Source: Naegleria gruberi (Eukaryota). Taken from it: a DNA stretch of 1,640 bases. The translations under genes and the position numbers were made by a program. Under the pieces are notes generated by a model that did no database searches, had not been told where the DNA came from, and worked only from the letters and a program-made list of their open reading frames with translations. This document shows, one piece after another, positions 1-1,640 of the stretch. The DNA lies in assembly GCA_000004985.1 (NCBI GenBank), contig GG739359.1. One strand, given 5' to 3'. Each line of letters starts with the position of its first letter. Position 1 is the stretch's first letter.

Positions 1-45
1 CTATGTTGTGTATAATTATTAACTAATTAAATATAATTAAAAAAC
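1..45 (-). other. Probable 3' UTR or downstream flank of the minus-strand gene
   Basis: On the minus strand, just after the TAA stop, the sequence is AT-rich and contains TATAT and TAATAAT-type elements (tataatta occurs twice, at 11..18 and 32..39 on the plus strand). No canonical AATAAA is visible before the window ends. Confidence 0.35.
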
Positions 46-828
46 TTACTCTAAAGATCCGAAAATAAATTGTAACTCTGGTACAAAGTAGGATTGTTTT
101 GCTTGTTTGGCAGATGTTGGTTGACTCGATATTGTTGAATTATTTCCAACAACAGTATTATTTGATTTATCGCCCAATGAACTAGAAGAAAGCTCTGCAA
201 CTGTGACCAGCACTCTAGAATTCACTGATTGATTAGATCCACTCGATATAGGTGTATATTTAGCACATGTAAATGGTGTAATTTTAAATGTTAAAGTATG
301 TTCCGATTGTTTTTTAATCAACAAACTCTTTCCTTCCTTCAACCGTAAACTACACTTTACCATATGCATTCCTTCGTTAGTATTTACAGATTTCTTCTCC
401 ACTAAAATGTAGGCCTTCCCACTATATCCAAGATAGCCATGATCAGCAGCAACAGAATTCGATGGAGAGGACAATGGAGAAACCTGCAGGTTTGGTGAGG
501 GGCTACTTTGAGGCATTTTTAATGGTTGATTATTAATACAAGTTGATGTCGTCGCACTGCTGACGGTTGTGGAAGTGGTGTCGCTTAGTGATGAAGAGTT
601 GTCGTTAGCTGATATCGATTGGTTAGTATTGTTGGTGGTGACTGTTATAGTTGGTGATCGAGAGGTATTGTTGGAGAGTTGGAGATGAGGTGGGAGTTGA
701 GGCAATTTTTGATTCTTGTATTGTTGTGGGTCGTGACTTGTTTGGTTTGTGCTTTCTGGAACACTACTACAGGAACTAATTTGATCGTAACTTGAGGATT
801 CATCCAAGTGGAGAGGAATGGTAAGCAT
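46..828 (-). CDS. Ser/Thr/Asn/Gln/Pro-rich low-complexity protein with a globular beta-strand-like C-terminal domain. It may be a single-exon gene or the terminal exon of a gene. Unknown function.
   Basis: A 274-codon open frame on the minus strand, 46..870 including the TAA stop at 46..48. In a 33% GC sequence an open frame this long is very unlikely by chance. The plus strand is G+T-skewed across the ORF, so the coding strand is A+C-rich, as expected for ACN, AAC, CAA and TCN codons. The 'M' at 868..870 is really GTG, and an in-frame TGA sits at 877..879. The first in-frame ATG is at 826..828, giving MLTIPLHLDESSS... and a 260-aa product. Immediately upstream on the coding strand is an acceptor-like ttttgtgcag|AACCCTGG (AG at 865..866). 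This fits either an SL/trans-splice or cis-splice acceptor about 36 nt before the ATG, or an internal exon starting at 864. Codon usage points to a eukaryote: GGA is the main Gly codon, CAA the main Gln codon, and Arg uses CGA, CGG and AGA. The C-terminal region, YILVEKKS...MHMVKCSLRLKEGKSLLIKKQSEHTLTFKITPFTCAKYTPISSG...RVLVTV, alternates hydrophobic and polar residues like a beta-sandwich. There is a very faint resemblance to an MSP/PapD-like fold. I cannot assign a family confidently. Confidence 0.6.
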   Translation of the reverse strand: MLTIPLHLDESSSYDQISSCSSVPESTNQTSHDPQQYKNQKLPQLPPHLQLSNNTSRSPTITVTTNNTNQSISANDNSSSLSDTTSTTVSSATTSTCINNQPLKMPQSSPSPNLQVSPLSSPSNSVAADHGYLGYSGKAYILVEKKSVNTNEGMHMVKCSLRLKEGKSLLIKKQSEHTLTFKITPFTCAKYTPISSGSNQSVNSRVLVTVAELSSSSLGDKSNNTVVGNNSTISSQPTSAKQAKQSYFVPELQFIFGSLE

Positions 829-846
829 TGGTGGATAGAGATGAAT

Positions 847-871
847 GTCATTACAACCAGGGTTCTGCACA
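847..871. repeat. Left arm of an inverted repeat. The core cagggttctgcaca (857..870) is the exact reverse complement of 1317..1330.
   Basis: I compared the two arms base by base. There are 14 contiguous perfect matches, and about 20 of 23 when extended to 847..871 versus 1317..1341. This arm overlaps the first approximately 24 nt of the ORF-track reading frame (46..870), upstream of the called ATG at 828. Confidence 0.7.
856..867 (-). other. On the minus strand, ttttgtgcag|AAC is a 3' splice or trans-splice acceptor-like site. The AG is at plus 865..866.
   Basis: A pyrimidine/T-rich tract is followed by CAG immediately before the in-frame coding sequence. The nearest in-frame upstream stop is only 4 codons away, at 877..879. 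Confidence 0.35.
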
Positions 872-1002
872 AAACCTCACATTGTGAGGTTACGATGAAA
901 TAAGAAAAAGACACTTGATGAGCCATGAATCACACAAAACTACCGTTACTAATAAAATTTAAAAAATTTGATGAAAAAAAAACATCCTGATGATGTTTTG
1001 TG
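868..1002. promoter_or_regulatory. A cluster of CACAAAAC/GTTTTGTG 8-mers sits at 868..875 and 933..940 (as CACAAAAC) and at 995..1002 (as GTTTTGTG), with two more at 1616..1631.
   Basis: There are five copies of an 8-mer expected about 0.05 times by chance in 1.6 kb. All lie in the non-coding half, upstream of the minus-strand gene. The core CRCAAAW matches the MSE/Ndt80-family site, which would matter if the source is a yeast. Confidence 0.3.
875..889. promoter_or_regulatory. The 15-bp palindrome CCTCACATTGTGAGG, with 7-bp arms around a central T, is a candidate dimeric transcription-factor site.
   Basis: cctcaca and tgtgagg are exact reverse complements. The site lies 5 to 20 nt upstream (coding-strand sense) of the start of the ORF-track frame and directly abuts the left inverted-repeat arm. 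Confidence 0.4.
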
Positions 1003-1144
1003 AATGAATCGTGCCGGGATGTTTAATTGCAAGTTATGATGTGAATCAAAAACATACCGTTCTACAAACAAGAGTAATAGCAATAATATTGATTATTGAA
1101 TATTAATTAAACAAAAAGAACACTGACCACTGGTTGAATAGAAT

Positions 1145-1194
1145 GCCTCAGGTTCTAGCTTGGTTCTAATCACCTTAGCACAATGTGCTGAGGC
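1145..1194 (+). other. Potential stem-loop or structured element: the 7-bp inverted repeat gcctcag (1145..1151) / ctgaggc (1188..1194) encloses two GGTTCTA units and the CACAATGTG palindrome.
   Basis: I read the inverted repeat directly. ggttcta occurs at 1151..1157 and 1163..1169. The gttctaatcacc segment loosely resembles a tRNA B-box (GGTTCGANTCC), but no tRNA cloverleaf can be assembled around it. Confidence 0.25.
1178..1193. promoter_or_regulatory. This second copy of the same core is the near-palindrome GCACAATGTGC followed by TGAGG.
   Basis: The 9-mer CACAATGTG is at plus 1180..1188 and again, on the opposite strand, at 878..886. Both copies are followed by GAGG, as cacaatgtgAGG and cacaatgtgctGAGG. 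Confidence 0.35.
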
Positions 1195-1316
1195 GTGCAA
1201 AGTAAAACTTTTCAAAAATAAAAGTATGGGTTCTATATTAATAGTTGAAAATTGATATGTATATGACTGAAAACAAAAACAAATAATATATTGGTTTATT
1301 TCCAAATTCAATATTC

Positions 1317-1341
1317 ATGTGCAGAACCCTGATTCTAATCA
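1317..1341. repeat. Right arm of the inverted repeat. The core tgtgcagaaccctg (1317..1330) extends imperfectly to about 1341.
   Basis: It is the reverse complement of 857..870. Its extension, tgattctaatca at 1330..1341, is also a direct near-copy of tggttctaatca at 1161..1172 (11 of 12 bases). Confidence 0.7.
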
Positions 1342-1345
1342 ATTA

Positions 1346-1355
1346 TTCTTTCCAG
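1346..1355 (+). other. On the plus strand, ttctttccag|TTCG is a 3' splice acceptor-like site.
   Basis: It is a near-consensus TTTCCAG-type acceptor. A second one, attcatgtgcag|AACCCT, lies at 1313..1324 inside the right inverted-repeat arm. Neither has a convincing downstream coding exon. Confidence 0.2.
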
Positions 1356-1640
1356 TTCGTTATCATTTTCATTTGAAAATATCGAACATTGTACTGAATT
1401 GTCGAGTCAACCAAGTCAAGAAGAAATGCTCTTTCGTTTGCTACCAATTTCATCTTCGGTGCTTTGATAAGGAAGGAGAAGAGTTTTGCGTAGAGGATTT
1501 TTAATTGTAGCGTGTCAGATAGACTGAGCAAATGATTCCTATTTTCAAATTTCACTGTCAGGTGTCAATCGAGTATGTAGTTGCATCACAGAAGAAGAAT
1601 TAAAAAAAAATCGAGGTTTTTGTGTTTTGTGTGTAACTCA

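What the first reader, a model, noticed from the sequence alone, without database searches (positions are those of the whole stretch)
826..879. The ORF-track start at 870 is GTG, so the true 5' end of the coding region is unresolved (ATG at 828, or an exon acceptor at 865)
The track appears to allow bacterial starts: 870 is GTG, 1311 is TTG, and 1319 and 1555 are GTG. For a eukaryotic gene the options are these. First, translation starts at ATG 826..828, with a 5' UTR beginning at a trans- or cis-splice acceptor, ttttgtgcag at 865. Second, this is an internal or terminal exon whose reading frame continues from an upstream exon, with a TGA at 877..879 lying in intron or outron. A weak SD-like GAGG sits 4 nt before the GTG, so a bacterial reading is not strictly impossible. 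However, 770 bp of adjacent non-coding DNA and the protein composition argue against it.
Basis: partly seen in the sequence, partly recalled or inferred. Interest (0 to 1): 0.5.

Follow-up and report, generated by a model that had tools for sequence, protein, structure and literature searches.

The report
Truncated Naegleria gene fragment, ambiguous start
The window is a tiny leftover scaffold of the amoeba Naegleria gruberi holding part of the first exon of a tandem-PH-domain gene; the GTG 'start' is a bacterial ORF-calling artefact, the real start codon most likely lies outside the window, and the annotated stop is really a splice site, so this is an ordinary annotation problem.

Summary
The window is a complete 1,640-bp Naegleria gruberi scaffold, so the organism is a eukaryote and GTG 870 only marks the first bacterial-type start after TGA 879-877. 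The deposited 260-aa model (XP_002668073.1) starts at ATG 828. Both of its ends look wrong. At the 3' end, TAA 48-46 sits inside a donor, GA|GTAAGT. Three orthologous loci have this donor at the same codon and splice it to a second exon (PH1 capping helix, PH2, coiled coil) that the scaffold lacks. At the 5' end, a second N. gruberi copy on a 342-kb scaffold (XP_002673232.1, 377 aa) is almost identical from codon 849-847 downstream. It then continues 108 residues upstream that are encoded nowhere in the window. Similarity is lost within 850-867, where the GTG and the 'acceptor' lie. An acceptor at 865 would give NPGCN, not the HKSCT of that copy, and the motif is weaker than 16 other YAG sites. 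No report of trans-splicing in Naegleria was found. The break could be a structural variant, a partial duplication or an assembly chimera; I could not fetch the 342-kb scaffold DNA to decide. Interest is low.

The parts
50..849 (-). Fragment of exon 1 that matches the fuller N. gruberi copy. It encodes the low-complexity N-terminal tail and the beta-core of the first PH-like domain.
   Evidence: BLASTP against P0007 gives 267/274 identities and is identical from D (849-847) onward apart from one 1-aa indel and two substitutions. The frame is open; over 870-508, only 18 of 5000 shuffles have no stop.
52..438 (-). Conserved block: seven beta-strands of PH-like domain 1 (GYLGYSGKAY ... LQFIFGS).
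   Evidence: tblastx/blastn conservation with N. lovaniensis, N. fowleri and the L004 taxon covers only window 43-435. tblastn starts at residue 145. The AF2 model of the orthologue has strands at 17-129 followed by helix 132-165. Foldseek hits are tandem-PH and single PH structures.
44..49 (-). 5' splice site GTAAGT (GT = 49-48). The annotated stop TAA 48-46 lies inside it, so exon 1 ends at 50 in phase 2.
   Evidence: The same GA|GTAAGT is at the same codon in L001, L002 and L004. Splicing there reproduces the deposited orthologue proteins...FIFGSEE-ESKEWCDKIM.
1..49 (-). Intron fragment. The contig ends on ...CATAG, 49 nt after the donor. Exon 2 is absent.
   Evidence: The orthologous introns are 89, 62 and 41 nt.
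850..867 (-). Homology break between the two N. gruberi copies, a zone of partial similarity (QNPGCN against QHKSCT).
   Evidence: Codon-by-codon minimum differences are 0,1,3,1,0,1 here, 0 downstream, and about 1.9 upstream against a random value of 1.6. The N-terminal 103 aa of P0007 are not encoded anywhere in the window.
868..870 (-). GTG, the table-11 ORF start. Not a biological start.
   Evidence: The organism is a eukaryote.
865..874 (-). Acceptor-like ttttgtgcag. Probably not used.
   Evidence: Pyrimidine score 6 of 11, below 16 other YAG sites. The predicted product disagrees with P0007.
877..882 (-). In-frame ATG (882-880) followed directly by TGA (879-877). It lies inside the palindrome CCTCACA-T-TGTGAGG (875-889).
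826..828 (-). ATG used by the deposited model XP_002668073.1. It corresponds to internal Met117 of the fuller copy.
   Evidence: The context is ccaccaATGc, and ATGs at 926, 882 and 851 precede it.
514..516 (-). In-frame ATG (codon 119) at the position where most family members start, 26 residues before the conserved block. Context ttaaaaATGc.
850..871 (.). Left arm of the inverted repeat. It covers the GTG and the acceptor-like motif.
   Evidence: the repeat finder I1: 22 nt, 91% complementary. With gaps it extends to 871->832 against 1318->1355. Matched by 8 of 300 and 12 of 300 shuffles.
1318..1339 (.). Right arm of the inverted repeat.
871..1640 (.). Non-coding sequence of unknown origin, unrelated to the upstream coding part of the fuller copy.
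   Evidence: Stops in all six frames, 32% GC. No Rfam family or tRNA. No match to the upstream neighbours at the orthologous loci. No plasmid or phage match.

Best explanation
The window is an orphan 1.6-kb scaffold of Naegleria gruberi NEG-M. It carries a copy, truncated at both ends, of the first exon of a tandem-PH/coiled-coil protein gene that I found only in Heterolobosea. GTG 870 is simply the first table-11 start after an in-frame TGA and means nothing in a eukaryote. The gene's real coding 5' end is not in the window. In the fuller N. gruberi copy (NAEGRDRAFT_71639) the same reading frame continues 108 residues further upstream. The window copy loses similarity to it within 850-867 and runs into unrelated non-coding DNA. 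ATG 828, used by the deposited model NAEGRDRAFT_77017, is therefore just the first ATG downstream of a breakpoint. That breakpoint could be a haplotype structural variant, a partial duplication or an assembly/cloning chimera. At the other end, the annotated TAA is part of a conserved GTAAGT donor, and the mRNA should continue into an exon 2 that lies beyond the contig. Shown: the organism, the conserved donor and its splicing in the orthologues, the protein-level break, and the lack of coding potential in 871-1640. Inferred: that the N-terminal extension of the fuller copy is one continuous exon, and what caused the break.
For: Organism and models. Break: BLASTP against P0007, tblastn of the P0007 N-terminus finds nothing upstream of 867, codon-wise differences. 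The N-terminal tail behaves as coding: no stop in 121 codons (18 of 5000 shuffles) while the other frames have 3 and 10 stops; the two copies differ by a one-codon in-frame indel; in the L004/L005 taxon the equivalent extension has in-frame indels (15 and 3 nt) and 5 of 6 substitutions at third positions. Three ATGs (926, 882, 851) precede ATG 828. 3' end: conserved donor and exact reconstruction of the orthologue proteins by splicing; every full-length family member continues into the E..EW..IQNNV helix, a PH domain (PF00169) and a coiled coil; the structure model places the junction between strand 7 and the capping helix.
Against: I could not fetch the DNA of the 342-kb scaffold, so the break is seen only through a JGI gene model that may itself contain an intron or be wrong. 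Most family members (N. fowleri, N. lovaniensis, Willaertia, Acrasis) start within about 20 residues of the first strand, so a long N-terminal extension is not the ancestral state. The inverted repeat at the break is only marginally non-random. No transcript data were available.
Confidence: 0.65

Rival explanations
1. ATG 828 is the true start of this copy, as in the deposited 260-aa model. The window would be a real 5'-truncated allele or paralogue transcribed from the adjacent AT-rich DNA.
For: It is the first in-frame ATG after TGA 879-877 and was chosen by the JGI/NCBI model.
Against: It is internal Met117 in the fuller copy. ATGs at 926 (93-codon out-of-frame ORF), 882 and 851 precede it, so scanning would require a transcription start within 850-829. 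The -3 position is C. The coding-like open frame continues upstream of it to the break.
Confidence: 0.12
2. cag|864 (or an acceptor a few bases away) is a real 3' splice site. The window would then hold an internal exon and 865-1640 would be intron, with the start codon in an upstream exon outside the window.
For: The fuller copy shows that coding sequence continues upstream. The motif has YAG plus a T-run and a GTAAC about 27 nt upstream, and the exon would be in phase 0. A single A-to-G change at 851 (ttgtaa to ttgtag) would create an acceptor compatible with P0007 (inference).
Against: An acceptor at 865 predicts NPGCND, not the HKSCTD of P0007, and there is no other AG in 870-848. The site is weaker than 16 other YAG sites. 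The orthologous genes have only the one downstream intron. The intron would be at least 776 nt, against 41-89 nt here and a mean of 203 bp (PMC8296547).
Confidence: 0.12
3. Translation really starts at ATG 516-514 (codon 119), the position equivalent to the orthologues' start. Positions 517-870 would be 5' UTR, so the disputed region would not be coding at all.
For: N. fowleri, N. lovaniensis, Willaertia and Acrasis proteins start no more than about 20 residues before the first strand. The context is A-rich, ttaaaaATGc. There is no conservation upstream of about 438.
Against: The frame is open for 118 codons upstream in the window (18 of 5000 shuffles over the 121 codons of 870-508) and for about 220 codons in the P0007 model. 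The two copies differ by an in-frame one-codon indel. GC is 41-45% in 508-870, against 32% in the flanking non-coding DNA. An analogous extension is under coding constraint in the L004/L005 taxon.
Confidence: 0.1
4. A bacterial-type gene starting at GTG 870 with the GAGG as a Shine-Dalgarno sequence, or a spliced-leader trans-splice acceptor at 865.
For: The motifs exist.
Against: The sequence is a Naegleria gruberi nuclear scaffold, and its relatives are all heterolobosean eukaryotes with spliceosomal introns. The literature search found no report of SL trans-splicing in Naegleria. From my own knowledge, it is known in Euglenozoa and not in Heterolobosea.
Confidence: 0.01

Closest known systems
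NAEGRDRAFT_71639 (XP_002673232.1 / EFC40488.1, 377 aa), the second N. gruberi copy, on a 342,059-bp scaffold
   Same: 267/274 identities with the window ORF. Identical from DIHLYPPM to ...FIFGSLE apart from one 1-aa indel and two substitutions. It ends at the same spurious stop.
   Different: It has 108 additional N-terminal residues (MCAKLSRSNSS...RQHKSCT) that are encoded nowhere in the window. Its DNA was not retrievable.
N. fowleri (446 aa, P0004) and N. lovaniensis (C9374_000110, 458 aa, 'PH domain-containing protein', P0003) orthologues
   Same: 54-60% identity over the conserved block, with the same GA|GTAAGT donor at the same codon.
   Different: They start about 15 residues before the first strand, with no long low-complexity tail. 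They include exon 2 (PH1 helix, PH2 = PF00169, acidic tract, EPDIFG motif, coiled coil), which the window lacks.
Tandem-PH proteins with solved structures (centaurin-alpha-1 3lju/3feh; FARP2 DH-PH-PH 4gzu)
   Same: The AF2 model of the orthologue aligns over about 290 columns, covering two consecutive PH-like folds.
   Different: Sequence identity is only 8-14% and TM scores over the full length are low. There is no ArfGAP or DH domain, and the heterolobosean family adds a C-terminal coiled coil. Pfam's PH model does not detect the first domain.

Membership tests
Bacterial GTG start with Shine-Dalgarno | The organism is prokaryotic and the gene is unspliced | tested here: not met
   100% match to a Naegleria gruberi scaffold and protein. 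The orthologues carry a spliceosomal intron.
Spliceosomal GT-AG intron, 5' splice site at 49-48 | GT(AAGT) at a position conserved in the orthologues, where splicing restores the frame | tested here: met
   GA|GTAAGT is at the identical codon in L001, L002 and L004. The spliced translations equal the deposited proteins. The window reads gga tct tta ga|gtaagt.
Spliceosomal 3' splice site at 865 | YAG preceded by a pyrimidine tract stronger than background | tested here: not met
   6 of 11 pyrimidines. 16 of 41 YAG sites on the strand score at least 7.
Spliceosomal 3' splice site at 865 | The spliced product agrees with an independent copy or transcript | tested here: not met
   It predicts NPGCND, whereas P0007 has HKSCTD. 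No transcript data were available.
Spliced-leader trans-splicing | An SL RNA and SL-bearing mRNAs in the lineage | not testable with these tools
   The literature search returned no report for Naegleria. There is no Rfam hit in the window.
PH domain (PF00169 / PH-like fold), for the exon-1 block | Match to the Pfam PH profile | tested here: not met
   The window ORF and P0007 give no PH hit. In the orthologues PF00169 matches only the second domain (residues 181-290).
PH domain (PF00169 / PH-like fold), for the exon-1 block | Seven-stranded beta-sandwich capped by a C-terminal helix carrying a conserved Trp | tested here: met
   In the AF2 model of orthologue P0004, strands lie at 17-129 and the helix at 132-165, with pLDDT 77-92 in these segments. 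Foldseek hits are tandem-PH and single PH structures. hhalign pairs FIFGSEE-ESKEW with the last strand and Trp helix of PH2 (E = 1.4e-4, probability 53%). The helix is encoded by exon 2, so the window alone encodes an incomplete domain.
TIR transposon / MITE (850-1339) | Terminal inverted repeats | tested here: inconclusive
   20 of 22 nt are complementary, but 8 of 300 shuffles do as well, and 12 of 300 for the gapped score.
TIR transposon / MITE (850-1339) | Target-site duplication flanking the arms | tested here: not met
   The flanks are GATGAATGTC / CAATTATTCT, or ATTACAACC / GATTCTAAT around the perfect core. These are not direct repeats.
TIR transposon / MITE (850-1339) | Multiple copies in the genome | not testable with these tools
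The metagenome scans found nothing.

The most novel reading that the evidence does not exclude
The break at 850-867 is a real, haplotype-specific rearrangement. Either an inverted-repeat-bounded element of about 490 bp (850-1339) or a fold-back event has replaced the 5' third of exon 1 in one N. gruberi haplotype. That would leave a 5'-truncated allele of a Heterolobosea-restricted tandem-PH gene. It would also point to a previously undescribed small mobile or fold-back element in Naegleria.
Probability: 0.12. Interest if true: 0.35.

Novelty: already known. Interest (0 to 1): 0.12.

Why it matters
The value here is for annotation. Both N. gruberi models of this gene (XP_002668073.1 and XP_002673232.1) end at a stop codon that is really a splice donor. 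No N. gruberi protein in the databases contains the PH2/coiled-coil half. The 260-aa entry should be treated as a fragment missing both ends, on an orphan scaffold. Comparative studies that count genes or domains in N. gruberi would miscount this family. No new biology is implied.

Tried and rejected
1. Fetching the N. gruberi scaffold DNA by exact protein look-up failed for both P0007 and P0001.
2. Two metagenome scans for relatives found nothing.
3. A search with the P0007 N-terminus returned only its own cluster.
4. No paper mentions either locus tag. The N. gruberi review PMC4929615 is not held.
5. Rfam, tRNA, plasmid and phage searches of the window or of 871-1640 were all negative. The bacterial promoter/terminator scan was at background.
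6. The first AF2 model (6 sequences) had pLDDT 37 and was discarded. PDB sequence searches with the exon-1 block gave nothing meaningful.
7. I looked for the 3' end of the syntenic upstream neighbour in 871-1640 and found none.
8. I considered a 16-nt mini-intron, GTGAGG...GTGCAG (880-865), and rejected it as far too short. This is an inference from this gene's 41-89 nt introns.
9. Folding 820-1370 gives z = -3.9. That only restates the inverted repeat.

Full report
OBSERVATION. The ORF in question is on the minus strand, 870..46 (274 codons). Reading that strand confirms every coordinate in the finding:
- GTG at 870-868.
- In-frame ATG at 828-826 (codon 15).
- In-frame TGA at 879-877.
- 'ttttgtgcag' at 874-865, so a putative exon would begin at 864 in phase 0.
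- GAGG at 878-875, four bases before the GTG.
The 770 nt at 871-1640 have stops in all six frames and 32% GC. The GTG start is what a table-11 ORF lister returns by construction. The acceptor-like motif is not special: 16 of the 41 YAG sites on this strand have a more pyrimidine-rich tract, and the 865 site scores 6 of 11.

IDENTITY. The ORF matches, at 100%, a 260-aa 'predicted protein' of Naegleria gruberi (XP_002668073.1 / EFC35329.1, NAEGRDRAFT_77017) whose contig is 1,640 bp long. The window is therefore that whole scaffold. Since 260 = 274 - 14, the deposited model starts at ATG 828. The organism is a eukaryote, which disposes of the bacterial reading. An exhaustive HMMER search plus name look-ups found relatives only in Heterolobosea: Naegleria fowleri, N. 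lovaniensis, Willaertia magna, Acrasis kona, a Percolomonas transcriptome, and a few unnamed Logan and metagenome contigs.

THE 3' END IS NOT A STOP. The N. fowleri and N. lovaniensis proteins (446 and 458 aa) continue past '...FIFGSEE' for about 310 residues. At all three orthologous loci the DNA reads GA|GTAAGT at exactly this codon. Removing introns of 89, 62 and 41 nt reproduces the deposited proteins (...FIFGSEE-ESKEWCDKIM). The window reads gga tct tta ga|gtaagt. So TAA 48-46 lies inside the donor (GT = 49-48), exon 1 ends at 50, and only 49 nt of intron remain before the contig ends on ...CATAG.

Exon 2 encodes a helix (E..EW..IQNNV), a PH domain (PF00169, 29.5 bits), an acidic tract with an EPDIFG..FW motif, and a coiled coil. 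With 13 sequences, AlphaFold models orthologue residues 17-129 as seven strands followed by a helix at 132-165, with pLDDT 77-92 in those segments. Foldseek's best hits are tandem-PH proteins aligned over about 290 columns, plus many single PH domains. hhalign pairs 'FIFGSEE-ESKEW' with the last strand and Trp helix of the second PH domain (E = 1.4e-4, probability 53%). The window therefore encodes the beta-core of a first PH-like domain without its capping helix. Pfam's PH model does not detect this first domain. No N. gruberi protein in the database contains the exon-2 half.

THE 5' END. The 90% cluster of the deposited protein has a second member, XP_002673232.1 (NAEGRDRAFT_71639, 377 aa), on a 342,059-bp scaffold.
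- It agrees with the window ORF at 267 of 274 positions. It is identical from D (849-847) downstream except for a one-residue indel and two substitutions.
- Upstream it reads ...SLINRQHKSCT and continues to an N-terminal MCAKLSRSNSS..., 108 residues in all. The window reads *GFVQNPGCN there.
- tblastn finds those residues nowhere in the window.
- The minimum nucleotide differences per codon are 0 downstream of 849, then 0,1,3,1,0,1 across 867-850, then about 1.9 further upstream (random expectation 1.6).
The two copies therefore part company within 850-867, exactly under the GTG and the 'acceptor'.

IS THE N-TERMINAL TAIL CODING? Conservation with other species stops at about 438. Most family members start within about 20 residues of the first strand, which makes the in-frame ATG at 516-514 (context ttaaaaATGc) a candidate start. 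Several observations point the other way.
- The frame has no stop across the 121 codons of 870-508, which only 18 of 5,000 shuffles achieve. The other two frames carry 3 and 10 stops.
- GC is 41-45% in 508-870, against 32% in the flanking DNA.
- The two N. gruberi copies differ there by an in-frame one-codon indel.
- In the L004/L005 taxon an analogous Ser/Pro-rich extension shows in-frame indels (15 and 3 nt), and 5 of its 6 substitutions are at third codon positions.
I conclude that the tail is probably translated, so the coding region runs up to the break.

WEIGHING THE STARTS.
- ATG 828 is internal Met117 in the fuller copy. It has C at -3. It is preceded on the same strand by ATG 926 (93-codon out-of-frame ORF), ATG 882 (followed at once by TGA) and ATG 851 (68-codon out-of-frame ORF). 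It looks like the first ATG after a breakpoint.
- An acceptor at 865 would encode NPGCND, not HKSCTD, and no other AG exists between 870 and 848. The colinear-allele version needs an extra A-to-G difference at 851 and chance identities at Q and C. It would also imply an intron of at least 776 nt. This gene's intron is 41-89 nt and the N. gruberi mean is 203 bp (PMC8296547 Table 2).
- I found no report of SL trans-splicing in Naegleria. PMC11613528 uses N. gruberi as a reference species for conventional intron positions.

WHAT THE BREAK IS. I could not decide this. A 22-nt inverted repeat (850-871 / 1318-1339, 20 of 22 complementary) has one arm on the break, and with gaps it extends to about 40 nt. 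It closes the minimum-free-energy fold of 820-1370 (z = -3.9). By itself it is only marginal: 8 of 300 and 12 of 300 shuffles do as well. There is no target-site duplication either. The 770 nt upstream match nothing I could search. N. gruberi is reported to be heterozygous (Fritz-Laylin 2010, as cited in PMC9928731), so a haplotype structural variant is plausible. A partial duplication and a chimeric clone are equally plausible for a 1.6-kb orphan scaffold. The scaffold DNA that would settle this was not retrievable.

VERDICT. The specific acceptor and trans-splicing ideas are not supported. The most likely situation is a gene fragment whose real start codon and second exon both lie outside the window. 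This is an ordinary annotation and assembly matter of low interest. The practical point is that both N. gruberi models of this gene are truncated at a splice donor.

Noticed in passing
window 44-50 (minus strand): The ORF's stop TAA 48-46 lies inside a conserved GTAAGT splice donor. Both deposited N. gruberi models (260 and 377 aa) end at this spurious stop, and no N. gruberi protein in the database carries the exon-2 half (PH2 plus coiled coil).
   Followed up: yes
window 850-871 and 1318-1339 (gapped: 832-871 / 1318-1355): An inverted repeat (20 of 22 complementary, 446 nt apart) has its left arm on the homology break and the GTG. This is why two ORFs in the track both begin 'MQNP'. It is statistically marginal and has no target-site duplication.
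   Followed up: partly
window 875-889: A perfect 7+7 palindrome, CCTCACA-T-TGTGAGG, lies immediately upstream of the GTG. On the minus strand it contains an in-frame ATG (882-880) followed directly by TGA (879-877).
   Followed up: no
window 1-5: The scaffold ends on ...CATAG exactly 49 nt after the donor. The orthologous introns are 41-89 nt, so the contig may end right at the acceptor, just before exon 2.
   Followed up: no
L002 6001-6237 (N. fowleri) against L001 5953-6000 (N. lovaniensis): In N. fowleri the frame is open for 79 codons upstream of the annotated MQSKSG start and begins 30 nt after the upstream gene's stop. In N. lovaniensis a stop lies 16 codons upstream. The extension in the raw N. 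fowleri ORF (P0002) is therefore probably not coding.
   Followed up: partly
L005 about 290-300, against L004 852-930: The second metagenome contig of the L004 taxon has an in-frame 78-nt deletion. It removes the most conserved segment of the first PH-like domain (EGKSLLVKKQSEHTLTFKITPFTCAK).
   Followed up: no
family alignment A3: The family has a fixed architecture: PH-like, helix, PH, acidic tract, EPDIFG..FW motif, coiled coil. I found it only in Heterolobosea (Naegleria, Willaertia, Acrasis, Percolomonas). Its function is unknown.
   Followed up: partly
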